A DNA stretch of 64,000 bases, from NCBI GenBank assembly GCA_964439835.1, contig CAYTPQ010000003.1, positions 55,468-119,467 of the forward strand, read 5' to 3'. The position numbers and the translations under genes are program-made. Position 1 is the stretch's first letter; each line of letters starts with the position of its first letter. The notes below the pieces were generated by a model. The model had not been told where the DNA came from. It ran no database searches and saw only the letters and a program-made list of their open reading frames with translations. Shown in pieces: positions 27,447-50,630 of this stretch. This DNA comes from an uncultured Ectothiorhodospiraceae bacterium (GTDB taxonomy: Bacteria > Pseudomonadota > Gammaproteobacteria > JAABTG01).

Positions 27447-30341
27447 ATGCAGGACCCTGCTGCCCGCTCCGACCTCGACGTCGGTCGCGTCGAGGTCAAG
27501 AACACCACGTGCTACATGTGCGCCTGTCGCTGCGGGATCCGGGTGACGGTCCGCGACGGCCAGGTCCGCTACATCCAGGGCAACCCCGACCACCCCCTGA
27601 ACCGCGGCGTCATCTGTGCCAAGGGGGCCTCGGGGATCATGAAGCAGTACTCGCCCGCCCGGCTCACCGTGCCCCTGCGGCGCAAGCCGGAGGCGGTGCG
27701 CGGCGAAGGCCAGTTCGAGGCGATCTCCTGGGACGAGGCCTTCCACACCCTGGAGGACCGCCTGGCGCGTATCCGGGCCGAGGACCCCCGGCAGTTCGCG
27801 CTCTTCACCGGGCGCGACCAGATGCAGGCCTTGACCGGACTCTTCGCCAAGCAGTTCGGCACCCCGAACTACGCCGCCCACGGCGGGTTCTGCTCGGTCA
27901 ACATGGCCGCCGGGATGATCTACACCATCGGCGGCTCGTTCTGGGAGTTCGGCGGGCCGGACCTGGAGCGCGCCAAGCTCTTCGTGATGCTCGGCACCGC
28001 CGAGGACCACCACTCGAACCCGTACAAGATCGCCATCTCCAAGCTCAAGCGCAGCGGCGGCCGGTTCGTCTCCGTGAACCCGGTGCGCACCGGCTACTCG
28101 GCCATCGCCGACGAGTGGGTGCCGGTCCGCCCCGGCACGGACGGCGCGCTGCTGCTGGCCTGGATCCGGGAGATCCTCCACCAGGGCCTGTACGACCGGG
28201 ACTTCCTGATCCGCTACACCAACGCCGCCGAGCTGGTCGACCTGACCCCGGGGGGCGGCGACGAAGGGCTGTTCGTGCGCGGGGCCGCGCCGATCGAGCC
28301 GGGCTGCTTCGACCCCCAGAACAAGCTCTGGTGGGACCGGGTCACCAACCAGCCGGTCACCACCCACGCCGAGGGCGCCGACCCCTACCTGCTCGGGTCC
28401 TTCCGCCTGGGTGACGGCCGCCCGGTCAAGCCCGCCTTCCAGCTGCTGAAGGAGCGGGTCGAGGACTACACGCCCGAGTGGGCCGAGGGGATCACCGGCG
28501 TGCCCGCGGCGACCATCCGCCGGCTCGCCCACGAGATGGGGGTCACCGCCCGCGACCAGCGAATCGAGCTGCCGATCCCCTGGACCGACTGCTGGGACCA
28601 GGAGCACGGCTCGGTCACCGGCAACCCGGTGGCCTTCCACGCCATGCGCGGGCTCGCCGCCCACTCGAACGGCTTCCAGACCATCCGCGCCCTGGCGGTC
28701 CTGATGACGCTGCTCGGCACCATCGACCGCCCGGGCGGCTTCCGGCACAAGCCGCCGTTCCCCCGCCCGATCCCGCCCTGCGCCAAGCCGCCGAAGGGGC
28801 CCCAGGACGTCCGTCCGGGGGAGCCGCTCACCGGGATGCCGCTCGGCTGGCCGGCCTCTCCCGACGACCTGGCGGTGGACGAGGCGGGCGAGCCGCTGCG
28901 GATCGACCGGGCCTTCTCCTGGGAGTACCCGCTGGCGGTCCACGGGCTGATGCACAACGTCATCACCAACGCCTGGCGGGGCGACCCCTACCGGATCGAC
29001 ACCCTGCTGATCTTCATGGCCAACATGGCCTGGAACTCGACCATGCACACGGCCGAGGTCCGGCAGATGCTGGCGGACCGGGACGGGCAAGGCGAGTACC
29101 GCATCCCGTTCCTGGTAGTGGCGGACGCCTTCCAGTCGGAGATAACGGCCTTCGCCGACCTGGTTCTCCCGGACACCACGTACCTGGAGCGCCACGACGT
29201 GATGTCGATGCTGGACCGGCCGATCTCGGAGTTCGACGGCCCGGTCGACTCGGTCCGCATCCCGGTGGTCTCGCCCAAGGGCCAGTGCAAGCCGTTCCAG
29301 GAGGTGCTGATCGAGCTCGGCTCGCGCCTGCGGCTGCCGGCCTTCCTGAACCCGGACGGGACCCGGCGGTACCGGGACTACCCGGACTTCGTCGTCAACT
29401 ACGAGACCGAGCCGGGCAGCGGGATCGGCTTCCTCGCGGGCTGGCGCGGCAAGGGCGGCGAGCGCTTCATGCGCGGCGAGCCGAACCCCCGACAGTGGGA
29501 CATGTACGCCCAGAACGGCGCCTTCTTCCACTACGAGCTGCCGCGCTCGTTCCAGTACATGCGCAACTGGAACAAGGGCTACCTGAACTGGGCCCGCCAC
29601 CACGGCCTGACCCGCTTCGCCGAGCCCATCACCATCCACCTGTACTCGGAGGTCTTGCAGCGCTTCCGGCTCGCCGCCGAAGGCCGGCGCCCGGGCCGCC
29701 AACCACCCGAGCGCCTGCGCGAGCGGGTGCGCACGCACTTCGACCCGCTGCCCTTCTACAGCGAGCCATTGGAGTCCCAGCTAGTGGACACCCAGAGGTA
29801 CCCGCTGAACGCTGTCACCCAGCGGCCGATGGCGATGTACCACTCCTGGGACAGCCAGAATGCGTGGCTACGCCAGATCCATGCCCACAACTACCTGTTC
29901 GTGCACCCGAAGGTGGGCCACGCGGGCAGCTTCGACGACGGCGACTGGGTGTGGGTGGAGTCGGTCTGGGGACGGGTGCGCTGCATGGCCCGCTTCTCGG
30001 AGGGCGTCGAGCCCGGCACGGTCTGGACCTGGAACGCCATCGGCAAGGCGCCGGGCGCCTGGGGGCTGTCGCCGAAGGCCAACGAGGCCCGCCTGGGATT
30101 TCTCCTGAACCACGTGATCGGCGAGGAGCTGCCCGCCCACGCCGCCGGTGAGCACGTCTCCAACTCGGACCCGGTGACCGGCCAGGCGGCCTGGTACGAC
30201 GCCCGCGTGCGGGTCTACCGGGCCGACCCGAGCGAGCCGCGGCGGACCTCGCCGGAGTTCAAGGCGCTGAGGCCCTACCCGGGGATGGAGCCGCGCCGGG
30301 GCCGGTGGCTCACCTTCGTGGCGGGTATGTTCGGCAAATGA
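27447..30341 (+). CDS. Molybdopterin-dependent oxidoreductase catalytic subunit (DMSO reductase family; PsrA/PhsA/TtrA-like). No Tat signal is detectable
   Basis: N-terminal [4Fe-4S] motif CYMCACRCG and bis-MGD domain architecture. It is followed by FeS and NrfD-like subunit genes. The N-terminus MQDPAARSDLDVGRVEVKNTTC has no RRxFLK motif and no hydrophobic core. Confidence 0.85.
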   Translation: MQDPAARSDLDVGRVEVKNTTCYMCACRCGIRVTVRDGQVRYIQGNPDHPLNRGVICAKGASGIMKQYSPARLTVPLRRKPEAVRGEGQFEAISWDEAFHTLEDRLARIRAEDPRQFALFTGRDQMQALTGLFAKQFGTPNYAAHGGFCSVNMAAGMIYTIGGSFWEFGGPDLERAKLFVMLGTAEDHHSNPYKIAISKLKRSGGRFVSVNPVRTGYSAIADEWVPVRPGTDGALLLAWIREILHQGLYDRDFLIRYTNAAELVDLTPGGGDEGLFVRGAAPIEPGCFDPQNKLWWDRVTNQPVTTHAEGADPYLLGSFRLGDGRPVKPAFQLLKERVEDYTPEWAEGITGVPAATIRRLAHEMGVTARDQRIELPIPWTDCWDQEHGSVTGNPVAFHAMRGLAAHSNGFQTIRALAVLMTLLGTIDRPGGFRHKPPFPRPIPPCAKPPKGPQDVRPGEPLTGMPLGWPASPDDLAVDEAGEPLRIDRAFSWEYPLAVHGLMHNVITNAWRGDPYRIDTLLIFMANMAWNSTMHTAEVRQMLADRDGQGEYRIPFLVVADAFQSEITAFADLVLPDTTYLERHDVMSMLDRPISEFDGPVDSVRIPVVSPKGQCKPFQEVLIELGSRLRLPAFLNPDGTRRYRDYPDFVVNYETEPGSGIGFLAGWRGKGGERFMRGEPNPRQWDMYAQNGAFFHYELPRSFQYMRNWNKGYLNWARHHGLTRFAEPITIHLYSEVLQRFRLAAEGRRPGRQPPERLRERVRTHFDPLPFYSEPLESQLVDTQRYPLNAVTQRPMAMYHSWDSQNAWLRQIHAHNYLFVHPKVGHAGSFDDGDWVWVESVWGRVRCMARFSEGVEPGTVWTWNAIGKAPGAWGLSPKANEARLGFLLNHVIGEELPAHAAGEHVSNSDPVTGQAAWYDARVRVYRADPSEPRRTSPEFKALRPYPGMEPRRGRWLTFVAGMFGK

Positions 30342-30344
30342 AGC

Positions 30345-30433
30345 ATCAAAGGGGTCAGACTCGATTGATCCACCGGCGACCCGACCGATGCCTGCGACCC
30401 GGCCGGGATCAATCGAGTCTGACCCCTTTGATC
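30345..30433. repeat. Family A palindromic element, copy 3, intergenic between the oxidoreductase A and B subunit genes
   Basis: atcaaaggggtcagactcgattgatcc-...-ggatcaatcgagtctgacccctttgatc. Confidence 0.7.
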
Positions 30434-30447
30434 GCGGGGGCGCCGTC

Positions 30448-31179
30448 GTGACGCAGCTTGCGCTTGTCATCGACCTGAATGTGTGCGTGGGCTGCCATGC
30501 CTGTGTCACCAGCTGCAAGGAGTGGAACACCTCCGGCTGGGCCGGGCCCCTGTCCGACGAGCGGGCCTACGGCCCCGACCCGACCGGCACCTTCTTCAAC
30601 CGGGTGCAGACCTTCGAGGTGGGCGAGTACCCCAACACCGAGGTGGTGCACTTCCCGAAGAGCTGCCTGCACTGCGAGGACCCGCCCTGCGTGCCGGTGT
30701 GTCCGACCGGGGCGTCCTACAAGCGGCCCGAGGACGGCATCGTGCTGGTGGACTACGACAAGTGCATCGCCTGCAAGTACTGCTCCTGGGCCTGCCCGTA
30801 CGGCGCCCGCGAGGTCGACGCCCGCCAGCGGGTGATGAAGAAGTGCACGCTCTGCGTCGACCGCATCTACGACCGGCGCCTGCCGGAGGCCGAGCGCAAG
30901 CCGGCCTGCGTGCTGGCCTGCCCCACTGGGGCCCGACTCTTCGGCGACGTGCACGACCCGGACTCCGAGGTGTCGGTGGCCATCCGCGAGCTCGGCGGCT
31001 ACCCCCTGATGCCGGAGTGGGGCACCCGGCCGGCCAACCACTACCTGCCGCGGCGCAAGACCCGCATCCGGCTGCACGAGGACGAGCTGATGCGGGCCGA
31101 CAACCCGCTGCGCAAGGAGGGCCTGTTGCCCGAGCCGCCGCCGGGGCAGCACACCCTGGACGACGTCATGAGCTGGTAG
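30448..31179 (+). CDS. 4Fe-4S ferredoxin-type electron-transfer subunit (DmsB/PsrB family)
   Basis: Four Cys clusters (CVGCHACVTSC, CLHCEDPPCVPVC, CIACKYCSWAC, CTLC...CVLAC). A GTG start was chosen immediately after the repeat, and it is uncertain. Confidence 0.75.
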   Translation: MTQLALVIDLNVCVGCHACVTSCKEWNTSGWAGPLSDERAYGPDPTGTFFNRVQTFEVGEYPNTEVVHFPKSCLHCEDPPCVPVCPTGASYKRPEDGIVLVDYDKCIACKYCSWACPYGAREVDARQRVMKKCTLCVDRIYDRRLPEAERKPACVLACPTGARLFGDVHDPDSEVSVAIRELGGYPLMPEWGTRPANHYLPRRKTRIRLHEDELMRADNPLRKEGLLPEPPPGQHTLDDVMSW

Positions 31180-31186
31180 GCGATCC

Positions 31187-32167
31187 ATGCACCCCGCCCT
31201 CTCGGTCATCTTCCTCACCACCCTCCTCGGCGTCGGCCAGGGGCTGTTCCTCGCCCTCTACACCGGGCAGGTGTACTCGCTGGCGCGGATCCTGCCGGCC
31301 CAGGACAGCGTTGCCTTCTACGGCGTCGGCAGCGCTATCGCCCTGGCCTTCCTGGTCGCCGGCCTGATCGCCTCGTTCTTCCACCTGGGGCGTCCGGAGC
31401 GCGGCTGGCGCGCCGCCGCCCGCTGGCGGACCTCCTGGCTTTCGCGCGAGGTGATCATCCTGCCCCTGGTGATGGGGCTCGTCGCCCTCTACGGGCTCGC
31501 CCACTGGATGGGGCTGACCCACCCCCTGTTCACGATCGCGGGCGCCTACCCGGTGGACCCGACGGTCCTGATTGGTCTCGCGGCTACCGTCGGGACATTT
31601 CTGCTGTTCGTTGCAACGGCGATGATCTACGCGAGCCTCCGGTTCCTAGAGGAGTGGCACTCGCCGCTGACGGTCTTCAACTACGTGCTCCTCGGCGGGG
31701 CCTCCGGCTTCACCCTGGCCGCCGCCTTCGCGGCCTGGTCGGGGGTGGACCTGGTCGGCTTCTACGGGGTGTGGGCGGTGATCCTGACGCTGGCGGCCCT
31801 GGTGAGCCGCGGGGCCTCGCTCGCGCGCAACGCGCGGCTGCGGCACAAGTCCACGCCGCAGAGCGCGATTGGCGTGCGTCACCCGCGGATCCGCCAGATT
31901 GCGCAAGGTGCCATGGGCGGGTCGTTCAACACCCGGGAGTTCTTCCACGGCCGGGGGCCGGTGTTCTTCCGGGCCGTGCGGCTGACGTTCCTGCTCCTGG
32001 TCTTCCCGGCGCCGATCGTGTTGCTGGCGGTGGCCTACGGCATGGCCTCGCCGACGCTGCCGGTGATTGCCTTCCTGGTGCAGTACGCGGGGCTGCTGGC
32101 GGAGCGCTGGTACTTCTTCGCCGAGGCGCGGCACCCCCAGAACCTGTACTACCAGTCCATGGCTTGA
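31187..32167 (+). CDS. Integral-membrane anchor subunit of the oxidoreductase (NrfD/PsrC/DmsC-like)
   Basis: About 8 TM helices, lying immediately downstream of the FeS subunit gene. Confidence 0.7.
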   Translation: MHPALSVIFLTTLLGVGQGLFLALYTGQVYSLARILPAQDSVAFYGVGSAIALAFLVAGLIASFFHLGRPERGWRAAARWRTSWLSREVIILPLVMGLVALYGLAHWMGLTHPLFTIAGAYPVDPTVLIGLAATVGTFLLFVATAMIYASLRFLEEWHSPLTVFNYVLLGGASGFTLAAAFAAWSGVDLVGFYGVWAVILTLAALVSRGASLARNARLRHKSTPQSAIGVRHPRIRQIAQGAMGGSFNTREFFHGRGPVFFRAVRLTFLLLVFPAPIVLLAVAYGMASPTLPVIAFLVQYAGLLAERWYFFAEARHPQNLYYQSMA

Positions 32168-32183
32168 CGGACGGGGGGCAGGC

Positions 32184-32282
32184 CCCCGGTACGGTCCCGC
32201 GGGACACGCCGCAAGTACGTCCCTGTAGGCTCGTCTGCCGCCATCCATGGCGTCAGACGGTCCCGCGAAACCGTACCGGGGA
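32184..32282. repeat. Family D ~100-bp nested-hairpin element, copy 1 (subtype 1)
   Basis: cccggtacggtcccgcgggacacgccgcaagtacgtccctgtaggctcgtctgccgccatccatggcgtcagacggtcccgcgaaaccgtaccgggg. It has terminal and internal inverted repeats and lies between convergent genes. Confidence 0.75.
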
Positions 32283-32357
32283 CCTGCGTCCAACTGGTCG
32301 GTTGCCTCGGCAAAGCGCGCCCAAAGTACCGCTGGGATTTCCCGGGAGACCGGGAAG

Positions 32358-33713
32358 CTAGGTGACGCCGCGGGCGTTGAGGGCGCGGGCGAGGGCCCGG
32401 TCGGCGTGGTGGATGTGGGCGAGCAGCCACTCCTTGATCCCCACCAGGGTGCGGGACAGGCCGTCCGACTCGAGCCGGCGGTCGAGGGCCGAGAGCTCGC
32501 TCAGGAGCCGCTGGTGCTGCTCTCGGTGCACGTCGGCGCCACCGACGGCGTGGGTGGCCATGAGGGCCTCCTCGGTCGCGAAGTGCAGGGCGGTGTAGCC
32601 CGTCAGGTCGGCGAGCAGCATGCGCACCGTCGCGGTCTCCTCGGCGGCGGCAATCGCCCGCGCCAGGGCGTTCACCCGGGAGACCATCTCCCGGTGCTGC
32701 GCGTCGATCACCGTGACGCCGATCTCGTGATCGGCTGACCAGGCGATCAGGGGCACCTCGCGCGACGAGGCGAGGGGCGTGCTGTCGTCGGCGAAGGTGT
32801 AGCAGCCCTTGCCGCGCTCCTTGCTGGCGTACATCGCGCCGTCGGCCGCCGCCAGCAGCGCGTCCACGGTGAGGCCGTGGGCCGGGCAGATCGCCAGGCC
32901 GACGCTAGCGCCGACCCGCACCGAGCCTTCGCCCAGTTCGACGGGCTCGGCGACTGAAGCGACCACTTTGGCGGCAATGCGCTCGAGGGCCGGGCGCTGG
33001 GTGGCGCGGTTGAGCAGCACGGTGAACTCGTCACCACCCATGCGTGCCACCGTGTCAGACTCGCGCACGCAATCCAGCAGGCGGCGCGCGACCACCTTCA
33101 GGACCGTGTCGCCCGAGTCGTGGCCGCGGCTGTCGTTCACGTCCTTGAAGCCGTCCAGGTCCAGGAGCATCAGCGCGAAGCCCTCGCCGTAGCGGCGGGC
33201 GTGGTGGACGGCCTGGGTGACGCGGTCGAGCAGCAGGGCCCGGTTGGGGAGACCGGTGAGCGCGTCGGAGAAGGCGAGCTGGTGGAGCTCGCGCTCGGCC
33301 CGCACCCGGTCGGTGACGTCAGCGAGCATGCCGACCACCACCGCGTGGCCGTGGTCGCGGATCCGCCGGCCCGACGCCTCCACCTCCATGACGCTGCCGT
33401 CCCGGCGCAGGGCGGCGAACGTCAACGGCGCGTCCTGGCCTTCTCCCCGGCGAAGGCCGGCGAGCCAGGCGGCCACCCGCTCCCGGTCCTGCAGGGCGAC
33501 CAGGTCGGCGAGCGGCCGGCCGGCCGGGGACTCCCCGGGGCGATAGCCAAATACGCCGGCAAACCGGGCGTTCGACGAGACCAGCCGCTCGTCCTCGAGC
33601 ACGAAGACGCCAATGAGGGACTGCTCGACCAGTGCCCGGTAACGAAGGGCCGTCTCCCGCAGCTCGGTCAGATCGTCCACCACCGCCACCGACTCCAGGC
33701 CCGCACCGCGCAT
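32358..33713 (-). CDS. Diguanylate cyclase with an N-terminal PAS domain and a C-terminal bacteriohemerythrin domain (PAS-GGDEF-Hr)
   Basis: GGDEF motif (ARMGGDEFTV). C-terminal hemerythrin His/Glu ligands (HF..EE..M, HREQH, AHIHHAD). SD gagggga before the ATG at 33713. Confidence 0.8.
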   Translation of the reverse strand: MRGAGLESVAVVDDLTELRETALRYRALVEQSLIGVFVLEDERLVSSNARFAGVFGYRPGESPAGRPLADLVALQDRERVAAWLAGLRRGEGQDAPLTFAALRRDGSVMEVEASGRRIRDHGHAVVVGMLADVTDRVRAERELHQLAFSDALTGLPNRALLLDRVTQAVHHARRYGEGFALMLLDLDGFKDVNDSRGHDSGDTVLKVVARRLLDCVRESDTVARMGGDEFTVLLNRATQRPALERIAAKVVASVAEPVELGEGSVRVGASVGLAICPAHGLTVDALLAAADGAMYASKERGKGCYTFADDSTPLASSREVPLIAWSADHEIGVTVIDAQHREMVSRVNALARAIAAAEETATVRMLLADLTGYTALHFATEEALMATHAVGGADVHREQHQRLLSELSALDRRLESDGLSRTLVGIKEWLLAHIHHADRALARALNARGVT

Positions 33714-33898
33714 CCCCGCGTCCCCTCTGCGACCGCGGGAAGAATGAAACACAGGTTAAGCGACGGGACAAGCCCCGGCAGCGGTAAGCGCCCAGGCCTC
33801 CCGCGGCCACGGCAGCGAGGAGGTTGCAGGCCGGAGCGACGTCCGGAACGCGCGGTCGGGCTCCGGTGCGGAAACGGACCGTGCGGATGCGAGCCGCG

Positions 33899-35167
33899 TC
33901 AGCTGTCGCCGGCGGGCACCCGCAGGACCTGGCCGGCCTGGACCCGGTCAGGCCGCCGCAGACCGTTCATCGCCATCAACTGCCGGTGACTCACGCCGTA
34001 GCGGGCAGCGATGTCGGAGATGGTCTCGCCCCGGCGCACCCGGTGCTGGCGCACGGTGGGCTTCGGCCGCACGACGTCGCGCACCGCCCGCCAGGTGTTT
34101 TCGCCCGCGGCCGCGCCGGGGGCCGCGACCGCCGTCGGGGCCTCCTGGGGCTCCAGCCGGCGCAGGGGTCCGAAGTGGACATGGGCCTGGCGGTCGACCT
34201 CCAAGGCCGCGAGGAACGACACGTAGAAGTTGCGCGAGGCGAAGCCGAAGGCGGGCCCGGAGTACTGGCGCACGATGGTGACGATGTCGTCGGTGCCCAT
34301 CTCGCGCACGGCCCGCACCACGCCCCCCGCGCCGTGGTTGTAGGCCGTGAGCGCGAGCGGCCAGCTGCCGGTCAGCTCGTGGTTGCGCCGCAGCAGCCGC
34401 GCCGCCGCCTCGGAGGCGCGGAACGGGTCCAGACGCTCGTCGGTGAAACGGTCGATGCGCAGGTACTGCTTGCCGGTAGGCACCGTGAACTGCCAGAGGC
34501 CCGCGGCCCCGGCGTGGGAGCGGGCACCGGGGTTGTAGGAGGACTCCACGTGGGGCAGTGCCGCGAGCTCGACCGGCAGGCCGAGGGACTTCAGGGTCGT
34601 CTCGATGTGGTCCCGCCAGAGGCCAGACCGCACGTACCCGTCGCGGAACTTGTCGGCCTGTCCGCGCTGAAAGCGCACCCGGTCGGCCGCCTCGCGCAGG
34701 GCCTCTTGGGATGTCTCCGACCCCCAGGCAGCCAGCGCCCGCGCCTCCTCCGGAGAGAGGTCCGCGCGCTTGCCGTCGGCCAGGTTCCGCAGGGCCTCAC
34801 GGTACTTCTCCACCGCCTCAGACACCCGTGCCTTCCCGTCCGCCGGCTCTGCCTCCGGCTCGGGCTGCAGGACCTCGTAGACCACATCCAGCCGCCGGTT
34901 GTCGTGGACAAACCCGCCGCGGGTGTCGACCTCCGTGAATACCCGGATCCAGAACCGTACGTCGGGCTCCAGCTCGGGCGGGCGGGGAAAGGCCGCGGGG
35001 TCCGCCTGGTAGGCAGGGGCACCGAGCGGCAGGCCGAGTCCAAAGACCCAGGGCGCCAGGGCCAGGAGTCGCCAGGCCTGCGACCTGTTTCGACGTGGGG
35101 GCTTGCGGGTCGCATCCCTGGAGGGGCGGGGGTCGGAAGTGCGGACGGGCGAGGGGCACGAGTCCAT
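33899..35167 (-). CDS. mltD: Membrane-bound lytic murein transglycosylase (MltD/Slt-domain) with a C-terminal LysM
   Basis: SLT domain (GLWQFTVPTG, AYNHGAGGV) and a C-terminal LysM (HRVRRGETISDIAARYGVSHRQLMAMNGL). Confidence 0.8.
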   Translation of the reverse strand: MDSCPSPVRTSDPRPSRDATRKPPRRNRSQAWRLLALAPWVFGLGLPLGAPAYQADPAAFPRPPELEPDVRFWIRVFTEVDTRGGFVHDNRRLDVVYEVLQPEPEAEPADGKARVSEAVEKYREALRNLADGKRADLSPEEARALAAWGSETSQEALREAADRVRFQRGQADKFRDGYVRSGLWRDHIETTLKSLGLPVELAALPHVESSYNPGARSHAGAAGLWQFTVPTGKQYLRIDRFTDERLDPFRASEAAARLLRRNHELTGSWPLALTAYNHGAGGVVRAVREMGTDDIVTIVRQYSGPAFGFASRNFYVSFLAALEVDRQAHVHFGPLRRLEPQEAPTAVAAPGAAAGENTWRAVRDVVRPKPTVRQHRVRRGETISDIAARYGVSHRQLMAMNGLRRPDRVQAGQVLRVPAGDS

Positions 35168-35427
35168 GGCGGGGGCTCCTGGCGGGACAGGGACCTGGCA
35201 ACGGCCGGGGCGGTGTTGACCGGGACATCGGCAGGAGCGGGCGGAGCTTCAGCGCGGACAGACCACCCTCGGCCGCGCAGCGTGTCAGGGCCAGCCCCCC
35301 CAGGGTCCGTGACGGGACGGCGGGAGGGTCGCCGGGCCCGGTACACGCAGGCCCTCGGGGCGCGGGTGTCCGGTCGACCGGCCGCCCGCGGCACGGACAG
35401 GCCGACGCGATCCCGCCGCCGGCCCCG

Positions 35428-35775
35428 CTACTCGGAGACCTCCAGGAGCTCGACCTCGAACAGGAGCGTCGCGTTGGGCGGAATCACGCCGCCCGCACCG
35501 CGGGCGCCGTAGCCCAGCTCGGCAGGGACGGTGAGCCGGCGCTTGCCGCCGACGCGCATACCGGTGACACCCTCGTCCCAGCCCTTGATCACGTAGCCCG
35601 TGCCCAGAGGAAAGCCGAACGGCTCGCCGCCGACGCTGGAGTCGAACTGCCGCCCGTCCTCCAGCCAGCCGGTGTAGTGGACCTTCACGAAGCAGCCGGG
35701 GCCGTGGGCCAGGTCGCCGCTGCCCTCTACCAGGTCCTCGTACGCCAGCCCCGTCGCCGTCGTCACCTGCGCCAT
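35428..35775 (-). CDS. FKBP-type peptidyl-prolyl cis-trans isomerase
   Basis: FKBP domain (VKVHYTGWLEDGRQFDSS...GFPLGTGYVIKGWDEGVTGMRVGGKRRLTVPAELGYG). SD ggaggagg before the ATG at 35775. Confidence 0.8.
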   Translation of the reverse strand: MAQVTTATGLAYEDLVEGSGDLAHGPGCFVKVHYTGWLEDGRQFDSSVGGEPFGFPLGTGYVIKGWDEGVTGMRVGGKRRLTVPAELGYGARGAGGVIPPNATLLFEVELLEVSE

Positions 35776-35897
35776 CGTCACGCCTCCTCCCCAAGGGAGC
35801 GCCACTGCACCACAGGCCGTAGCCGGGGGCAACCCTGGCGCAGTGGGGGATCCGACCGCTAGACTCGGGATTGACCCGCCATACTCGGAGGAGCCCC

Positions 35898-37579: not shown

Positions 37580-37825
37580 GGCCCCCAGCGCCGGCGCTTT
37601 CCGCCCGGCATCAACCGCTCCCGCCCCCCTGCGAGCGGGATCCCGGGGCGGCCGAGCCGCTCCCCGCCCGTTCATGACCGGGATCAAGGTTTGCCCTCCG
37701 CCACCCCTTTAGACTGCCAACCCCAATATGTAGTGTCTCTAATAGAGCAGAGCCCCAGCATCCTGTAGGCGCGTGAGCCAACGCGACCTGCAGCGGAGCG
37801 CCAGGGGCCTTCCGGGAGGAACCGC

Positions 37826-39859
37826 ATGAGCGCCGTCATCGCCCCGCGTCCCGCGACGCTGCCGTCCCGTATCGTCAAGCGCGACGGCCGCCCCGTCCCC
37901 TTCGACGCCGACCGCATCTACTCGGCCCTCCTGCGGGCCGGTCAGGCGACCGGCGAGTTCGCGGAGGACGAGGCCCGCCTGATCACGGCGCAGGTAGTCA
38001 AGGTCATCAGCCACCGCTTCGGACCCGAGGAGCCGCCGACCATCGAGCGGGTGCAGGACATGGTCGAGCAGGCCCTGATCAGCGCCAACCACCTCCAGAC
38101 CGCCCGCGCCTACATCGTCTACCGCGAGCAGCACAAGCGCCTGCGCGAGGACCGCCGCACGCTGGTGGACGTGGAGAGCTCGATCCGCGAGTACCTGGAC
38201 CGGGTCGACTGGCGGGTGTCGGCCAACGCCAACCAGGGCTACTCGCTGGGCGGGCTGATCCTGAACACCTCCGGCAAGGTCGTCGCCAACTACTGGCTCT
38301 CCCACGTCTATCCGCCCGAGATCGGCAACGCCCACCGGGAGGGCGACGTCCACATCCACGACCTGGACATGCTCGCCGGCTACTGTGCGGGCTGGTCGCT
38401 ACGCACGCTCCTCACCGAGGGCCTGAACGGCGTTCCCGGCAAGGTCGAGGCCGGGCCTCCGAAGCACATGTCGAGCGCAGTGGGCCAGATCGTCAACTTC
38501 CTCGGCACCCTGCAGAACGAGTGGGCGGGGGCCCAGGCCTTCAGCTCGTTCGACACCTACATGGCGGCCTTCGTGCGCAAGGACCGCCTCGGCTACCGCG
38601 AGGTCAAGCAGTACGTCCAGGAGCTGATCTACAACCTGAACGTCCCGTCGCGCTGGGGGACCCAAACACCGTTCACCAATCTCACCTTCGACTGGGTCTG
38701 CCCGGAGGACCTGCGCCCGCAGGTGCCGATCATCGGCGGCCAGGAGATGCCGTTCACCTACGGCGACCTACAGGCCGAGATGGACCTCATCAACCGCGCC
38801 TACATCGAGGTGATGACGGACGGTGACGCCAAGGGCCGGGTCTTCACCTTCCCAATCCCGACCTACAACGTCACCCCCGACTTCCCCTGGGAGAGCGAGA
38901 ACGCCGACCGGCTGTTCGCGATGACCGCGAAGTACGGCCTGCCCTACTTCCAGAACTTCGTGAACTCCGATCTGAAGCCCAACATGATTCGGTCCATGTG
39001 CTGCCGTCTGCAGCTCGACCTCCGCGAGCTGCTCAAGCGCGGCAATGGACTCTTCGGATCGGCCGAGCAGACGGGGTCGGTGGGGGTCGTGACCATCAAC
39101 TGCGCGCGCCTGGGCTATCTGTTCCCCGGCGACGAGACCGGCCTCTACGCGCGCCTCGACCAGCTCCTCGACATCGCCCGCAACAGCCTCGAGATCAAGC
39201 GCAAGGTGATCCAGCGTCATATCGACGCCGGGCTCTTCCCCTACACGAAGCGCTACCTCGGCACCCTGCGCAATCACTTCTCGACCATCGGCGTGAACGG
39301 GATCAACGAGATGATCCGCAACTTCACCGCCGGCGACGAGGACGTCACCACCGCCTGGGGCGAACAGTTCGCCTCGCGGTTCCTGGACCACATTCGCGCG
39401 CGGATGGTCGAGTTCCAGGAGGTGACGGGCCACATGTACAACCTGGAGGCGACACCGGCCGAGGGCACGACCTACCGCTTCGCGAAGGAGGACCGCAAGC
39501 GCTTCCCCGGGATCCTGCAGGCCGGCTCGCCGGAGGCGCCCTACTACACCAATTCCTCGCAGCTCCCGGTCGGCTTCACCGACGACCCGTTCGAGGCCTT
39601 GGAACGGCAAGAGAAGCTACAGAAGAAGTACACCGGCGGCACCGTGCTGCACCTGTACATGAGCGAGCGGATCTCCAGCGCCGACGCCTGCCGCCAGCTG
39701 GTCAAGCGCGCGCTGGAGCGCTTCCGCGTCCCGTACATCACGGTGACGCCAACCTTCTCGATCTGCCCGAAACACGGCTACCTGTCGGGCGCCCACGAAT
39801 TTTGCCCGCTCTGCGACGAGGAGGCCCTCGCCCGCAAGCAGGCCGCGGCGGTCCATTGA
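37826..39859 (+). CDS. nrdD: Anaerobic ribonucleoside-triphosphate reductase (class III) large polypeptide with an N-terminal ATP-cone. It ends after the Zn-ribbon, before the glycyl-radical motif
   Basis: ATP-cone (VKRDGRPVPFDADRIYSAL), NrdD core and a C-terminal CPKHGY...CPLC zinc ribbon. There is no RVxGY glycyl-radical motif in this ORF. SD gggagga before the ATG at 37826. Confidence 0.85.
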   Translation: MSAVIAPRPATLPSRIVKRDGRPVPFDADRIYSALLRAGQATGEFAEDEARLITAQVVKVISHRFGPEEPPTIERVQDMVEQALISANHLQTARAYIVYREQHKRLREDRRTLVDVESSIREYLDRVDWRVSANANQGYSLGGLILNTSGKVVANYWLSHVYPPEIGNAHREGDVHIHDLDMLAGYCAGWSLRTLLTEGLNGVPGKVEAGPPKHMSSAVGQIVNFLGTLQNEWAGAQAFSSFDTYMAAFVRKDRLGYREVKQYVQELIYNLNVPSRWGTQTPFTNLTFDWVCPEDLRPQVPIIGGQEMPFTYGDLQAEMDLINRAYIEVMTDGDAKGRVFTFPIPTYNVTPDFPWESENADRLFAMTAKYGLPYFQNFVNSDLKPNMIRSMCCRLQLDLRELLKRGNGLFGSAEQTGSVGVVTINCARLGYLFPGDETGLYARLDQLLDIARNSLEIKRKVIQRHIDAGLFPYTKRYLGTLRNHFSTIGVNGINEMIRNFTAGDEDVTTAWGEQFASRFLDHIRARMVEFQEVTGHMYNLEATPAEGTTYRFAKEDRKRFPGILQAGSPEAPYYTNSSQLPVGFTDDPFEALERQEKLQKKYTGGTVLHLYMSERISSADACRQLVKRALERFRVPYITVTPTFSICPKHGYLSGAHEFCPLCDEEALARKQAAAVH

Positions 39860-39869
39860 GGAAAGAGAA

Positions 39870-39936
39870 CCGCAGAGGCGCAAAGGCGCAGAGAGGATTG
39901 GTGGGATCGATGCTTCTCGGCGTCTGCGTGTCTCGG
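39870..39936. repeat. Family B hairpin element, degenerate copy 3, between the two nrdD pieces
   Basis: ccgcagaggcgcaaaggcgcagagagg...ctcggcgtctgcgtgtctcgg. The left arm matches copies 1 and 2, and the right arm is decayed. Confidence 0.5.
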
Positions 39937-39974
39937 TAGCAACCGAGTGAGAACAAGAGGAGAGGAAACTGACG

Positions 39975-40142
39975 ATGAGTGAGGGGAGAATCGAGCTGAG
40001 CGAGACCGAGCGCACCCGCTGCGAGGTGTGGACGCGGGTGATGGGCTACCACCGGCCGGTCTCCGCCTTCAATCCCGGCAAGCAGTCCGAGCACCGCGAG
40101 CGCACGCCCTTCCAGGAGCGGCGCTGTGCGGCGCTGCGGTGA
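39975..40142 (+). CDS. 55-aa ORF carrying the NrdD glycyl-radical motif, apparently the detached C-terminal module of nrdD
   Basis: It is not in the ORF track (<60 aa). Own translation: MSEGRIELSETERTRCEVWTRVMGYHRPVSAFNPGKQSEHRERTPFQERRCAALR. It matches the NrdD C-terminal glycyl-radical region (RVxGY...NxGKQxE..R). Strong SD aagaggagagg 8 nt before the ATG. Confidence 0.6.
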   Translation: MSEGRIELSETERTRCEVWTRVMGYHRPVSAFNPGKQSEHRERTPFQERRCAALR

Positions 40143-40204
40143 GGGCACCGCATCCGCAAATTCATTAGGGCCGGCTGAGAATCCCTGCACCGGGCTTCAA
40201 GCAG

Positions 40205-40305
40205 GTTTCCGGTGCGGTTTTGCGGGACCGTATGCCGCCTGGATGGCGGCATACGAGCCTACAGGGACGTATTCACGGCGCGTCCCGCGGGACCGCACCG
40301 GGAAT
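40205..40305. repeat. Family D nested-hairpin element, copy 2 (subtype 2, reverse orientation)
   Basis: Its reverse complement aligns with copy 4 (cccggtgcggtcccgcgggac.cgccgtgaatacgtccctgtaggctcg.atgccgcc...). It lies between convergent genes. Confidence 0.7.
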
Positions 40306-40346
40306 CTGCTGGCACGGTGGCGAGACCGTAGTCTTTCGCCTGCTCA

Positions 40347-41993
40347 TCAGGCGCTCCGCAGTCGGACCAAGCGGATGACGATGACGGCCGCGATCGGTAG
40401 CAGGAAGCCGATGGCCATCGCGGTGAGCATCAGGTCGCCGAGCTGCCCGTAGTCCGCGGGGACCTTCACTGCACCGGTCGCCGCGTCCTTCACCTCCCGG
40501 GTGACCACGAAGACCTGGTTCAGGTACTTCGTGCCCAGCTGGCTCGCCGACAGGGCCAGATTGGTGAAGGAGGCCATCACCGCGAAGAACGTGGCCTTCA
40601 GGCCGGCGGGGGCCGAGTTCGCGATCCAGGCGAGCATCGGCACCATCGCCACCTGCCCGAGCGGCGACTCGAGCGCAGTGTCGACCAACGCGATGAACCG
40701 GGCATCGACCACCCCACCGGTGACCGCCGCGGTCCACTCGTGGAGTCCGTGGTACATCCCGACAATCGGCAGGTACAGCACGGTGGCTGCAATCGTCAGC
40801 GTGACCACCACGTACGCGATGGACCGCTCGGCCATGAAGCGCCGGAACAGGAACAGGCCGACCAGGGTCAGACCGCTGCTGATGAGCGAGAGCACGGCCA
40901 GGAACTGCTGGTCGAAGCCGAGCTCGTCGATCATCCACCAGGTCTGGCCTGCGCCGGGCGTCGGCATGGCGCGGTAGACGAAGATCACGATCGCCGTGCC
41001 CACCAGCACCCGCCGCGCGTCCGGGTCGAGCACGCGGACCAGGCGGCCCATCAGGAACAGCACGATCGCCATCGACCCGGCGAAGATGATCTCCTGGTCG
41101 TAGGGCACGTCGCTCAACCCCAGGCCGATGGTGAACGCGACGAACGCGAGGCTGCCGCCCAGGATCCACCAGTTGGGCTCGGTGCGCTGGGGCTCGCCGT
41201 CCATCAGGAGCCGGGCCCGGGAGTCCGCGATCCCGGTGCGGCCTAGCTCGCGAAGGGCGCGGCGCCGCAGGTGGGCCGCCAGCCCGACGCCCAGCACCGA
41301 GATGACGGGGATGACGAGCGCCAGTTCGTAGATCCGGATATAGGCCGCCAGCTTGTCCGATTCGGACATCTTCGCGACCCCGTCGAACACGTACACGTTG
41401 AGGAGCGAGACCAGGACGCCACCGCCGATGATGGCGACCCGCCCCAGCGTCTGCATCGTCGTGTGCATGAGCTTGCGCGCGGCGGCGTCCACCGGCTCGC
41501 CGCGGCTGTCGACCCGGGGCACCGCCTCTACCGTCATCGCGTCGGCGACCACGTCCTGCAGGACGTAGCCGACCGGCGCCAGCAGGGCGCTCGTCACATA
41601 CCAGGCGTCCACCGGCATCACGGTAGCCATGGCAGCCGGCGCGGCCAGCAGGTTGACCATGATCAGAATGCTGGCCGCAATCAGGCCGGCCCCGAGGAAC
41701 ACCAGCAGGGCCTTGAAGCGCCAGAGCAGGTCGACCAGGTGCCCGAGGGGCATCTTCAGCGCCCAGGGGATCCCGGCCCAGAACCCGAGGGCCGCCAGGA
41801 AGGCCGCCGAGAGGCCCAGGTAGTCCTTGACGAAGAAGGTTCCGACGATGGCGGTCAGGCCGGACACCCCGGCCGCCAGGTAGACCATGAGCGGCGGCAG
41901 GTAGGACCACCGCATCTGCCGGCCGAGGTCGGCGACGTTGCGGTCCCACCAGCCCCGGAGCCCGGTTGTGTCGGTCTGCGCACCCACGATCAT
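40347..41993 (-). CDS. BT1-family (folate-biopterin transporter family) membrane transporter
   Basis: 12-TM protein with a BT1 signature near the N-terminus (FFVKDYLGLSAAFLAALGFWAGIPWALKMPLGHLVD). SD aggggag before the ATG at 41993. Confidence 0.7.
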   Translation of the reverse strand: MIVGAQTDTTGLRGWWDRNVADLGRQMRWSYLPPLMVYLAAGVSGLTAIVGTFFVKDYLGLSAAFLAALGFWAGIPWALKMPLGHLVDLLWRFKALLVFLGAGLIAASILIMVNLLAAPAAMATVMPVDAWYVTSALLAPVGYVLQDVVADAMTVEAVPRVDSRGEPVDAAARKLMHTTMQTLGRVAIIGGGVLVSLLNVYVFDGVAKMSESDKLAAYIRIYELALVIPVISVLGVGLAAHLRRRALRELGRTGIADSRARLLMDGEPQRTEPNWWILGGSLAFVAFTIGLGLSDVPYDQEIIFAGSMAIVLFLMGRLVRVLDPDARRVLVGTAIVIFVYRAMPTPGAGQTWWMIDELGFDQQFLAVLSLISSGLTLVGLFLFRRFMAERSIAYVVVTLTIAATVLYLPIVGMYHGLHEWTAAVTGGVVDARFIALVDTALESPLGQVAMVPMLAWIANSAPAGLKATFFAVMASFTNLALSASQLGTKYLNQVFVVTREVKDAATGAVKVPADYGQLGDLMLTAMAIGFLLPIAAVIVIRLVRLRSA

Positions 41994-42124
41994 CTCCCCT
42001 CCGCGCTCCTGGATCAGCCCACCGCAACCCGCGGCCAGGGCTCTGGGCGGCGGCGCCGCCACCTGCAGACCCCCGCCGGCCCATCGGAGGCAGAGCGGCC
42101 CGGGCGCACGAGTATACTGGCCGC

Positions 42125-42814
42125 ATGCTGGAAATCGGCGGCTTCACCCCGCTCACCACGATCGACTTCCCCGGCCGCCTGGCCGCCGTGGTGTTCTGCC
42201 AGGGCTGCCCCTGGCGCTGCCGCTACTGCCAGAACGCGCACCTGATCCCGGCCGCGGCCGAGGCGCCCGTGGCCTGGGAGGACGTCGTTCGTTTCCTGGA
42301 GCGCCGCGTGGGTCTGCTCGACGGGGTCGTATTCAGCGGCGGCGAGCCCACGCTGCAGGCCGGCCTCGGCGATGCCCTGCGCCAGGTCCGGACCCTCGGC
42401 CTGGCGACGGGCCTGCACACGGCCGGCCCCTACCCGGACCGCCTCGCTGCGGTGCTGCCCCTGCTCGACTGGGTGGGGCTCGACGTCAAGGCGCCCGCGT
42501 CCGCCTACGCGGCGCTGACCGCGGGCGGAGCGCCCAGCGGGGAGCGGGCCTGGGAGAGCTTGAGCCGGCTCCTGGCGAGCGGCGTCGCCTACGAGGTGCG
42601 CACGACCGTTCACCCCGACCTGCTGACGCCGGAGGACCTCCTGAGCCTGTCGCACGAGCTCGCGGCAGCGGGCGTCACGGACTACGTTCTACAGGAGTGC
42701 GTGGACGGCCACTGCCTGGACCCCACGCTCTCGCGCCCGTCGCGGATCCCGGAGGCGGTCTCCGGGCCCCTGTCACGCCTCTTTCCCCGCTTCAGCATCC
42801 GGCGCACCGCCTGA
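42125..42814 (+). CDS. nrdG: Anaerobic ribonucleotide reductase-activating protein (radical SAM)
   Basis: CQGCPWRCRYC radical-SAM cluster motif and a GGEP SAM-binding motif, at NrdG-like size. Confidence 0.85.
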   Translation: MLEIGGFTPLTTIDFPGRLAAVVFCQGCPWRCRYCQNAHLIPAAAEAPVAWEDVVRFLERRVGLLDGVVFSGGEPTLQAGLGDALRQVRTLGLATGLHTAGPYPDRLAAVLPLLDWVGLDVKAPASAYAALTAGGAPSGERAWESLSRLLASGVAYEVRTTVHPDLLTPEDLLSLSHELAAAGVTDYVLQECVDGHCLDPTLSRPSRIPEAVSGPLSRLFPRFSIRRTA

Positions 42815-42957
42815 AGCCCGCCGGCGGTCGGGACCTGCGGAGAGTCCCGGCCCGCCCTGGCAGCAGCGATTGATGTGCATCATCCTGTGGTATCGTTCTG
42901 TTTCTGTATGCTGTTGTGTTCTTGAAGACGGGTCCCAGAGGGCCCGCCGGAGTACCG

Positions 42958-46031: not shown

Positions 46032-46214
46032 AGGGAGGGGGTCTCGGTCGACCCCGGCCGGGGTCACGGTGAGCGCCACCCGGCGCACTTTCCGATTCTA
46101 GCGGTCCGGGCCCCGGTGTGCCCATTGACGGCGATCAACGCGCTCCAAACGCAAGGACCCCGCCTGGTCACCCAGGCGGGGTCCTCAACGACTACTGCTG
46201 GGCGGCGTGGCCGG

Positions 46215-48367: not shown

Positions 48368-49025
48368 CGGGAGGACGTACCGACACGGGGGCGCCGCGAC
48401 GCGACTCCAGGGTGCTCTCGATCTTGCGCAGCTCCTCCAGCTGGCGCTGGCGGGTTGCGGCCTCGCTTTGCTCGCGCGCGAGGGCGCGCTGCAGAGACAG
48501 CACGCGCTGCTCCAGGTCGCGGCCGTGCGCGAGTGACTGCTTCAGGTCCCGTTCGAGCCCCGCGATCCGCTGGCGCCTCTCCTTCTGGTCCTCCAGCGCC
48601 GCGTTCAGGCGGTACTCCCGATCGATTGCGGCGGACAGCAGGACCTCGAGGAGCTGGCAAAGATCGCGAACCCCGGCGTCCACCGCCTCGGACCGCTGCC
48701 CCTGCAGCAGCGTCAGGGCTCGGCGCTCGTCCTCGGCCGGGCCACCCGGCATCGCGAGCAGGAGGGCGAGCTGCATCCGGTGCGTTGGGCTAGGGTCCGC
48801 CGCGTAGGCAGCCCGGCGGCGCTCGAGCTCGCGAGCGAGCTCCGCCTTGGGGAGCCCACGCACGCGGCTGAAGTAGGCCAGCGCGTGGGCCACGTCGGCG
48901 GTGCAGACGTCGGGCGCCGGGCCGGCGGGGGACCCGGAGGACAGACCCGGCGCGGGGCCCGATACGCAGCCCCCCAGGGCGGACAGGGCCGCGAATCCAA
49001 CAAGGAGGCGAAGCGCGGGTCTCAT
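48330..49025 (-). CDS. Lipoprotein with a coiled-coil, QseG/YfhG-like, between the kinase and the regulator
   Basis: Lipobox LSALGGC and a coiled-coil C-terminal half. Its position between a 2-TM HAMP histidine kinase and a sigma-54 regulator mirrors the E. coli glrK-yfhG-glrR order. The start overlaps the kinase stop as ATGA. Confidence 0.5.
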   Translation of the reverse strand: MRPALRLLVGFAALSALGGCVSGPAPGLSSGSPAGPAPDVCTADVAHALAYFSRVRGLPKAELARELERRRAAYAADPSPTHRMQLALLLAMPGGPAEDERRALTLLQGQRSEAVDAGVRDLCQLLEVLLSAAIDREYRLNAALEDQKERRQRIAGLERDLKQSLAHGRDLEQRVLSLQRALAREQSEAATRQRQLEELRKIESTLESRRGAPVSVRPPDEPEQGQSPPSR

Positions 49026-50485: not shown

Positions 50486-50630
50486 GGGTGGGGGCAAACC
50501 GCCCGTTGCGGGCGCGGCTGGGGCGTCGGGCGGATCCAGCCACAGTATAGGGCCTCGGCGGGGCCACGGCCCGCGCGGTGCTACTATCCTCCCCAGAGTC
50601 CTCCGCAGAGGACCCCGCCGCGAGGTGACC

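What the first reader, a model, noticed from the sequence alone, without database searches (positions are those of the whole stretch)
32358..33713. PAS-GGDEF diguanylate cyclase with a C-terminal bacteriohemerythrin domain
It couples a di-iron O2/NO-binding hemerythrin to c-di-GMP synthesis, with the sensor at the C-terminus rather than the N-terminal arrangement of the described Vibrio Bhr-DGC. The gene sits next to a cytoplasm-facing molybdoenzyme and close to the anaerobic RNR genes. That suggests an oxygen- or redox-responsive switch between lifestyles.
Basis: partly seen in the sequence, partly recalled or inferred. Interest (0 to 1): 0.5.

Follow-up and report, generated by a model that had tools for sequence, protein, structure and literature searches.

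The report
PAS–GGDEF cyclase with C-terminal hemerythrin
The gene really does encode a c-di-GMP-making enzyme with an iron-based oxygen/redox sensor domain at its tail end, but hundreds of uncultured bacteria carry the same protein design and annotation pipelines already recognise it, so it is an ordinary member of a known, biochemically untested, kind.

Summary
Window 32358-33713 (- strand, 451 aa from the ATG) encodes PAS, GGDEF and a C-terminal bacteriohemerythrin. All seven di-iron ligands, the GGDEF catalytic motif and the RxxD feedback site are intact.

The reversed domain order relative to Vibrio Bhr-DGC is real but not unusual. Of the best 120 database homologues, 119 have GGDEF followed by a C-terminal hemerythrin. 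All 94 homologues tested score for both Pfam domains. JGI and NCBI already name such proteins "diguanylate cyclase/hemerythrin-like/PAS" or "bacteriohemerythrin". A 2008 survey already listed GGDEF+PAS hemerythrin chimeras.

The gene-context argument fails. The neighbouring molybdoenzyme is the sulfite dehydrogenase SoeABC, transcribed convergently. nrdD lies 4 kb away across four genes on both strands. Neither neighbour is kept in relatives at 57% identity or below.

The most likely function is a redox/O2-modulated diguanylate cyclase. This is inferred from Bhr-DGC and from DcrH, which is the closest solved hemerythrin domain and is also C-terminal. The direction of regulation and the coupling mechanism are unknown. 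AlphaFold gives no confident GGDEF-hemerythrin interface.

In the literature I could search, no C-terminal-hemerythrin cyclase has been characterised. That is the only modest point of interest.

The parts
32358..33713 (-). Complete gene: 451-aa PAS-GGDEF-bacteriohemerythrin protein (ATG 33713-33711, stop 32360-32358). An in-frame GTG at 33752 would add 13 residues.
   Evidence: Homologues P0001 and P0002 are also 451 aa.
33315..33644 (-). PAS domain (residues 24-133). It is the least conserved module, with mean 31% identity to distant family members. No cofactor is assignable.
   Evidence: The only PDB sequence matches are weak, 6HMJ and 3BWL at E about 1e-4.
33276..33314 (-). Helical PAS-to-GGDEF connector (residues 134-146, TDRVRAERELHQL) leading into the LAFxDxLTGLPNR start of GGDEF.
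   Evidence: AF2 helix 134-148; alignment A1.
32808..33275 (-). GGDEF diguanylate cyclase domain (residues 147-302).
   Evidence: Pfam E 1e-44. Structural matches to solved GGDEF domains at rmsd 1.2-2 A. Invariant D185, D187, N193, D194, D202, K298.
33024..33038 (-). Catalytic motif G226-G-D-E-F230.
   Evidence: GGDEF is present in 118 of 120 homologues.
33054..33065 (-). RxxD inhibitory (I) site, R217-E-S-D220, five residues upstream of GGDEF.
   Evidence: RxxD is present in 119 of 120 homologues.
32751..32807 (-). GGDEF-to-hemerythrin linker (residues 303-321). The sequence is poorly conserved and AF2 confidence is low, but the length is tightly conserved.
   Evidence: The spacing from the GGDEF motif to the first Fe ligand is 110-115 residues in 111 of the 117 homologues where both motifs were found (mode 114, n=65).
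32376..32750 (-). Bacteriohemerythrin domain (residues 322-446): an N-terminal loop (L322-I336) followed by a four-helix bundle.
   Evidence: NF033749 94 bits > 84. The best PDB sequence match is the DcrH Hr domain 2AVK, E 3e-12. AF2 helices 334-355, 360-387, 393-413, 419-447.
32400..32696 (-). Span holding the seven di-iron ligand codons: H340 (32694-32696), H377 (32583-32585), E381 (32571-32573), H396 (32526-32528), H400 (32514-32516), H433 (32415-32417), D438 (32400-32402).
   Evidence: Invariant in the 30-sequence alignment A1. The full pattern is present in 114 of 120 homologues.

Best explanation
The gene encodes a cytoplasmic, catalytically competent diguanylate cyclase with two sensory modules flanking the catalytic domain.

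Shown: the PAS, GGDEF and bacteriohemerythrin domains are present. The GGDEF active-site motif, the RxxD product-inhibition site and all seven di-iron ligands are intact and conserved across the family.

Inferred:
1. The protein dimerises through the N-terminal PAS and helical stalk, as in other PAS-GGDEF enzymes, so that two GGDEF domains can meet to make c-di-GMP from 2 GTP.
2. The C-terminal hemerythrin binds a di-iron centre. Its oxidation state (diferrous or diferric, set by O2 or cellular redox) changes the order of the hemerythrin N-terminal loop, as described for DcrH. That loop is the direct, fixed-length connection to the end of the GGDEF domain.
3. This changes how freely the two GGDEF domains can pair, so c-di-GMP output follows oxygen/redox.
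4. c-di-GMP then feeds back through the RxxD site.

By analogy with Vibrio Bhr-DGC, the reduced (low-oxygen) form would be the more active one, but the sign is not known. In a sulfur-oxidising gammaproteobacterium living at an oxic-anoxic interface, this would tie attachment or motility decisions to oxygen.
For: - Domain scores above curated cut-offs.
- Seven ligands, GGDEF and RxxD are invariant or nearly so in 30-, 94- and 120-sequence sets.
- The closest solved relative is the C-terminal hemerythrin domain of the chemoreceptor DcrH. All ligands align, as do several residues of the N-terminal loop segment WS...ID.QH.
- DcrH shows a redox-dependent order/disorder change of that loop, proposed to signal to the preceding domain (PMC9388753).
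- Vibrio Bhr-DGC is 10-fold more active when diferrous than when diferric. Ferrovum Bhr-HD-GYP is active only when reduced.
- GGDEF-to-hemerythrin spacing is nearly constant (110-115 residues in 111 of 117 homologues where both motifs were found) although the linker sequence is not conserved.
- One family member on an 85-kb contig (P0074, 345 aa) has only a short stalk, GGDEF and Hr, with no PAS. This suggests the hemerythrin can be the only sensor.
- PAS is the least conserved module, at 31% identity against 54% for GGDEF and 37% for Hr.
- The hemerythrin domains of GGDEF-Hr proteins largely form one neighbour-joining cluster, 31 of 38. This points to a coherent, selectively maintained fusion.
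Against: - No member with this domain order has been characterised in the literature I could search, so metal binding, activity and regulation are all untested.
- AlphaFold2 places the two domains without a confident relative orientation. pTM is 0.52 for the full length and 0.62 for GGDEF-Hr, and linker pLDDT is below 60. No interface is defined.
- Only one residue (L441) distinguishes the hemerythrin domains of this family from free-standing ones. There is no sequence signature of a dedicated docking surface.
- Whether the site forms an O2 adduct or simply autoxidises cannot be read from sequence.
- Gene context gives no functional support.
Confidence: 0.6

Rival explanations
1. The hemerythrin domain reports iron availability rather than oxygen/redox. 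Only the iron-loaded domain folds or permits cyclase activity, as in the iron-dependent hemerythrin-like domain of mammalian FBXL5, so c-di-GMP tracks cellular iron.
For: The complete, invariant di-iron ligand set fits metal-occupancy sensing as well as redox sensing. Related family members come from iron-oxidiser lineages such as Gallionella and Gallionellaceae. Surveys list metal binding as a possible role of bacterial hemerythrins (PMC3770913).
Against: Both characterised c-di-GMP hemerythrin enzymes respond to oxidation state with iron retained. The closest solved relative, DcrH, is an O2/redox sensor. The FBXL5 analogy is my own background knowledge and was not tested here.
Confidence: 0.12
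2. The PAS domain is the real regulatory input. The hemerythrin is an accessory, for example local O2 or peroxide scavenging, or an extra dimerisation module, and does not control cyclase output.
For: PAS-GGDEF with an N-terminal sensor and helical stalk is the canonical regulated layout; solved examples include 8C05 and 5XGB. AlphaFold finds no confident GGDEF-Hr contact. There is almost no family-specific surface on the hemerythrin.
Against: PAS is the least conserved module. It is not detectable by sequence in 41 of 119 homologues, and at least one member (P0074) has too short an N-terminal region (20 residues before GGDEF) to hold one. The hemerythrin ligands and the linker length are strictly kept. 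A passive passenger would not be expected to hold a fixed spacing.
Confidence: 0.12
3. The di-iron site senses nitric oxide or hydrogen peroxide rather than O2. This would link c-di-GMP to nitrosative or oxidative stress.
For: Reviews mention H2O2 binding or detoxification roles for some hemerythrin-like proteins (PMC10101095). That deoxy-hemerythrin can bind NO is my background knowledge.
Against: There is no direct evidence here. [quoted passage not shown] The window has no NO-detoxification genes adjacent to the gene.
Confidence: 0.1
4. The gene is functionally tied to its neighbours and regulates or is co-regulated with SoeABC sulfite oxidation or the anaerobic ribonucleotide reductase, as a local oxygen-lifestyle module.
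For: Physical proximity in the window and in relatives at 93% identity. FNR-like boxes occur in the window, including one upstream of nrdD.
Against: The orientation relative to soeC is convergent. nrdD is four genes away on the other strand. Neighbours are unrelated in homologues at 57, 50, 43 and 41% identity. No FNR-like box lies in the 185-nt intergenic region upstream of the gene.
Confidence: 0.04

Closest known systems
Vibrio cholerae Bhr-DGC (VC1216; Schaller et al. 2012, as summarised in PMC9388753)
   Same: It combines a bacteriohemerythrin with a full di-iron ligand set and a GGDEF diguanylate cyclase in one cytoplasmic polypeptide. It is the functional precedent: diferrous is 10 times more active than diferric.
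   Different: The domain order is reversed: Hr is N-terminal there and C-terminal here. Bhr-DGC is described with two domains only (Hr, GGDEF); here a PAS domain is added. None of the 150 closest 50%-identity representatives of this hemerythrin domain has the Hr-GGDEF order. The two fusions are probably independent, and the coupling geometry must differ.
Desulfovibrio vulgaris DcrH hemerythrin domain (PDB 2AVK, 2AWC, 2AWY)
   Same: It is the closest solved structure by sequence (E 3e-12). It also sits at the C-terminus of a signalling protein, so its N-terminal loop is the link to the upstream domain. All ligands align.
   Different: The upstream partner in DcrH is a methyl-accepting chemotaxis signalling domain, not a GGDEF cyclase.
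Uncharacterised (PAS-)GGDEF-hemerythrin proteins in public genomes and metagenomes (e.g. MCU0935787.1 'bacteriohemerythrin', Gammaproteobacteria MAG GCA_025458305.1)
   Same: Same architecture, length and motifs. P0001 is 93% identical and sits in the same local gene order. At least 119 clusters at 90% identity share the GGDEF to C-terminal Hr order.
   Different: Nothing of substance. The window protein is one more member.
Ferrovum Bhr-HD-GYP
   Same: A hemerythrin-controlled c-di-GMP enzyme, active only when reduced.
   Different: The output is an HD-GYP phosphodiesterase and the hemerythrin is N-terminal.
Canonical PAS-GGDEF cyclases (e.g. LOV-activated DGC 8C05, RbdA/PA0861 5XGB)
   Same: An N-terminal PAS, helical stalk and GGDEF. 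These are the best whole-model structural matches.
   Different: They have no hemerythrin and no C-terminal sensor following the GGDEF domain.

Membership tests
GGDEF diguanylate cyclase (PF00990 / TIGR00254) | Profile score above the curated cut-off | tested here: met
   152.6 bits against 23.8; 137.4 against 37.4.
GGDEF diguanylate cyclase (PF00990 / TIGR00254) | Intact GG(D/E)EF active-site motif and conserved metal/GTP-binding residues | tested here: met
   G226-G-D-E-F230. D185, D187, N193, D194, D202, K298 are invariant in A1. Assigning these residues to metal or GTP binding rests on background knowledge of PleD-type enzymes.
GGDEF diguanylate cyclase (PF00990 / TIGR00254) | RxxD allosteric inhibition site five residues upstream of GGDEF (present in many, not all, DGCs) | tested here: met
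   R217-E-S-D220; present in 119 of 120 homologues.
GGDEF diguanylate cyclase (PF00990 / TIGR00254) | Synthesis of c-di-GMP from GTP | not testable with these tools
   Needs an enzyme assay.
Bacteriohemerythrin (NF033749 / TIGR02481 / PF01814) | Profile score above the curated cut-off | tested here: met
   94 bits against 84; 87.2 against 51.75; 46.9 against 25.3.
Bacteriohemerythrin (NF033749 / TIGR02481 / PF01814) | Seven di-iron ligands H...HxxxE...HxxxH...HxxxxD | tested here: met
   H340, H377, E381, H396, H400, H433, D438. They align to the DcrH ligands and are invariant in A1.
Bacteriohemerythrin (NF033749 / TIGR02481 / PF01814) | Four-helix bundle preceded by an N-terminal loop | tested here: met
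   AF2 helices 334-355, 360-387, 393-413, 419-447, mostly pLDDT 80-95.
Bacteriohemerythrin (NF033749 / TIGR02481 / PF01814) | Binds two Fe, with reversible O2 binding or autoxidation | not testable with these tools
   Needs metal analysis and UV-vis or resonance Raman spectroscopy.
Vibrio-type Bhr-DGC | N-terminal hemerythrin followed by C-terminal GGDEF | tested here: not met
   The order here is PAS-GGDEF-Hr. It works like a Bhr-DGC at most; it is not a member of that architecture.
Vibrio-type Bhr-DGC | Cyclase activity higher in the diferrous than in the diferric state | not testable with these tools
   Needs an anaerobic enzyme assay.
DcrH-type C-terminal hemerythrin sensor | Hemerythrin at the C-terminus of a signalling protein, linked through its N-terminal loop | tested here: met
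   Hr spans residues 322-446 of 451. The median distance from Hr end to C-terminus is 7 residues in the family. Loop residues W325, G332, D337 are conserved.
DcrH-type C-terminal hemerythrin sensor | The upstream partner is a methyl-accepting chemotaxis signalling domain | tested here: not met
   The upstream partner is GGDEF.
PAS sensor domain | Profile score above the cut-off | tested here: met
   PF00989 32 bits against 22.6; PF13426 30.4 against 27; TIGR00229 66 against 22.9.
PAS sensor domain | Identifiable cofactor or ligand-binding residues (heme His, LOV Cys, FAD) | tested here: inconclusive
   There is no Cys in the NxRF segment (SSNARFAG), so it is not LOV-like (sequence). The only solved relatives are weak, E about 1e-4. 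No cofactor can be assigned.

The most novel reading that the evidence does not exclude
The (PAS-)GGDEF-hemerythrin family may control a diguanylate cyclase from the C-terminal side. A di-iron sensor on a fixed-length tether (110-115 residues from GGDEF to the first Fe ligand) would gate GGDEF pairing through the redox-dependent ordering of its N-terminal loop. This would be mechanistically distinct from the usual N-terminal sensor and coiled-coil register control, and it would integrate with a second, N-terminal PAS input. This would be a new regulatory geometry for GGDEF enzymes, not a new kind of system.
Probability: 0.3. Interest if true: 0.45.

Novelty: new member of a known kind. Interest (0 to 1): 0.27.

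Why it matters
If the hemerythrin does regulate the cyclase, this widespread family would add a second way of wiring a di-iron oxygen/redox sensor to c-di-GMP synthesis, with the sensor placed after the catalytic domain. It would also offer a tractable case for how C-terminal sensors control GGDEF domains. It would be relevant to bacteria living at oxic-anoxic interfaces, here a sulfur oxidiser carrying SoeABC. The window protein itself adds nothing beyond the many near-identical and homologous sequences already in public databases.

Tried and rejected
1. The genome-contig scan with alignment A1 was back-translated from generic GGDEF peptides. It returned only ordinary PAS-GGDEF genes whose matches end at about residue 307-329, with no hemerythrin.
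2. An exact look-up of the window protein found no encoding contig. The cluster listing shows only that the sequence exists in an NCBI contig of 143 kb. The nearest named record is the MAG GCA_025458305.1, 'Gammaproteobacteria bacterium'.
3. AlphaFold2 on the full length and on GGDEF-Hr with 94 sequences gave confident domains but pTM of 0.52 and 0.62 and a low-confidence linker. No interdomain interface can be claimed.
4. The Foldseek AFDB50 library was unavailable. The PDB search found no solved GGDEF-hemerythrin protein.
5. A search for family-specific hemerythrin residues as an interface signature found only L441.
6. Promoter and terminator scans of 32100-34000 found nothing. Rfam found no RNA element, so there is no c-di-GMP riboswitch, and there are no tRNAs in the window.
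7. An FNR-box search found none in the 185-nt upstream intergenic region. One 1-mismatch site lies inside the upstream gene, about 255 nt from the ATG. That is too weak to build on.
8. Supplementary files of the two hemerythrin surveys gave no usable list of GGDEF-Hr architectures. The Schaller 2012 paper is not held.
9. The idea that the GGDEF is degenerate and acts as a receptor was rejected, because the motif and catalytic residues are intact.

Full report
**What is there.** The - strand between 32358 and 33752 carries one long ORF. Its codon GC3 of 0.92 matches the other genes of this 70% G+C window. The ATG at 33713 follows a GAGGGGA Shine-Dalgarno-like stretch and gives 451 aa, exactly the length of the two closest database homologues.

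- Pfam finds PAS (32 bits), GGDEF (152.6 bits, E 1e-44) and Hemerythrin (46.9 bits, E 4.8e-12), in that order.
- NCBIfam scores the C-terminal domain above the curated cut-off of the bacteriohemerythrin model, 94 bits against 84.
- In 451-aa numbering the catalytic motif is G226-GDEF-F230.
- The RxxD product-inhibition site is R217-ESD-D220.
- The seven di-iron ligands are H340, H377, E381, H396, H400, H433 and D438.
- All seven align with the ligands of the solved DcrH hemerythrin domain.

**How common it is.** The full-length search returned thousands of hits.

- Among the best 120 cluster representatives, 119 have GGDEF followed by a hemerythrin. The hemerythrin ends a median of 7 residues from the C-terminus.
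- All 94 members of a larger alignment score for both Pfam domains.
- In those 120, GGDEF is intact in 118, RxxD in 119 and the complete ligand pattern in 114.
- I also searched the hemerythrin domain alone against 1.84 billion 50%-identity representatives. Of the 150 best, 38 are (PAS-)GGDEF-Hr. The rest are tandem or single-domain bacteriohemerythrins or other long proteins. None has the Vibrio-type Hr-GGDEF order.
- Source pipelines already label these proteins 'diguanylate cyclase (GGDEF)-like protein/hemerythrin-like metal-binding protein/PAS domain S-box' (JGI) or 'bacteriohemerythrin' (NCBI).
- Members come from Gammaproteobacteria, Competibacteraceae, Gallionellaceae, Rhodocyclaceae, Acidobacteriota and Thermoanaerobaculia MAGs.
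- A rough neighbour-joining tree puts 31 of the 38 GGDEF-linked hemerythrin domains in one cluster. This is a coherent family, not a set of scattered accidents.

**What the literature says.** Chimeric hemerythrins were surveyed in 2008. Of 84 chimeras, 53 had C-terminal Hr domains; 16 had GGDEF partners and 7 had GGDEF combinations, six of them with PAS (PMC2556348). A 2016 survey lists Hr-N-terminal/GGDEF-C-terminal as a frequent architecture among 56 (PMC4919030). Only two hemerythrin-controlled c-di-GMP enzymes have been characterised, both with N-terminal hemerythrin:

- Vibrio cholerae Bhr-DGC: 0.77 min-1 diferrous against 0.073 min-1 diferric, with the azide form inactive.
- Ferrovum Bhr-HD-GYP: active only when reduced (PMC9388753; PMC8846402).

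Full-text searches found no characterised cyclase with a C-terminal hemerythrin. The arrangement is catalogued and abundant, but untested at the bench.

**Surroundings.** The gene is flanked as follows.

- On its 3' side is a convergent three-gene operon: a 964-aa molybdopterin subunit with no twin-arginine signal, a 4Fe-4S subunit and a DmsC-like membrane anchor.
- The large subunit is 78% identical to the protein that NCBI and UniRef name SoeA in Allochromatium vinosum, and many hits carry the name 'sulfite dehydrogenase subunit SoeA'.
- Upstream on the same strand lie an SLT/LysM lytic transglycosylase and an FKBP isomerase.
- Further on are a rhodanese, an APH-type kinase and then nrdD at 37826-39859.
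- Relatives at 93% identity keep this order.
- The 57% relative keeps only FKBP and has a sulfatase downstream. Relatives at 50, 43 and 41% identity have unrelated neighbours.

Convergent transcription and loss of synteny mean the neighbourhood says nothing about function. No promoter, terminator, riboswitch or FNR-like box was found in the upstream intergenic region.

**How it most likely works.** The catalytic residues show a competent cyclase with product feedback. The N-terminal PAS and helix 134-148 resemble the dimerising stalk of solved PAS-GGDEF enzymes. The hemerythrin is most similar to DcrH's, which is also C-terminal. The N-terminal loop of the DcrH domain becomes disordered on reduction and was proposed to carry the signal to the preceding domain.

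Here that loop (residues 322-336) follows directly on a linker with three properties:

- Its sequence is variable.
- AF2 confidence in it is low.
- Its length is almost invariant: 110-115 residues from GGDEF to the first Fe ligand in 111 of the 117 homologues where both motifs were found.

PAS is the least conserved module, and at least one member has no room for one before GGDEF. The hemerythrin is therefore the conserved sensor.

My best reading, at about 0.6 confidence, is a redox/O2-modulated cyclase in which the state of the di-iron site changes the tether and hence GGDEF pairing. The direction of the effect, and whether an O2 adduct forms, are not predictable from sequence.

Several things count against a firm mechanism. 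AlphaFold gives no confident interdomain orientation, with pTM of 0.52 and 0.62. Only one residue (L441) is specific to the hemerythrin domains of this family.

Rival readings remain open and are scored separately: iron sensing, NO or peroxide sensing, a non-regulatory hemerythrin with PAS as the true input, and a neighbour-linked role.

**Verdict.** The sequence observation is right. The mechanistic idea is reasonable but rests on analogy, the context argument does not hold, and the architecture is common and already annotated. I rate it a new member of a known kind. The modest interest is that no C-terminal-hemerythrin cyclase has yet been studied biochemically.

Noticed in passing
window 27447-32167 (+): A complete soeABC-type cytoplasmic sulfite dehydrogenase operon. 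SoeA is 964 aa, has no Tat signal and is 78% identical to the protein named SoeA in Allochromatium vinosum. SoeB (4Fe-4S) is at 30388-31179 and the DmsC-like SoeC at 31187-32167. This marks the organism as a sulfur oxidiser. NCBIfam has no model that names SoeA or SoeC above cut-off.
   Followed up: partly
window 51001-54042 (+): A second c-di-GMP protein: 1013 aa with PAS-GGDEF-EAL (EAL E 2e-65, GGDEF E 3e-41) and about 450 N-terminal residues without a Pfam match. The hemerythrin cyclase is therefore one of several c-di-GMP enzymes in this genome.
   Followed up: no
window 37674-37687, 42870-42883, 46125-46138, 33966-33979: FNR-like boxes (TTGAT-N4-ATCAA, up to 2 mismatches) are enriched: 15 against 1.9 expected. 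Sites lie upstream of nrdD, of an NMO-like gene and of a radical-SAM gene. One 1-mismatch site sits inside the 3' end of the lytic transglycosylase gene, about 255 nt upstream of the cyclase ATG. The enrichment may partly reflect codon bias.
   Followed up: partly
window 37826-42814: nrdD (677 aa, 1128 bits to NF006126) and a 282-aa radical-SAM protein that is probably its activase (41966-42814) are separated by an oppositely oriented BT1/folate-biopterin-type transporter gene (40347-42062). The longest ORF of that transporter overlaps the start of the radical-SAM ORF by about 100 nt, so one of the two start codons is probably mis-set.
   Followed up: no
L084 40-2024 and window 33713-35832: An FKBP-type isomerase gene lies upstream of the hemerythrin cyclase on the same strand, both in the window (with a lytic transglycosylase between them) and in a 57%-identical relative (directly adjacent). 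It is the only neighbour retained at that distance.
   Followed up: no
window 32406-32417 (residues 433-436, H-I-H-H): Two extra histidines follow the sixth iron ligand (HIHHAD). A His at ligand+3 recurs in several family members (P0002, P0011, P0026, P0028, P0032, P0117) but is absent from DcrH (HIMKED). It could be a second-sphere residue.
   Followed up: no
window 46988-50791 (-): A sigma-54-dependent two-component pair: a response regulator with an AAA+ domain and a 589-aa histidine kinase, with a 231-aa ORF without Pfam match between them.
   Followed up: no
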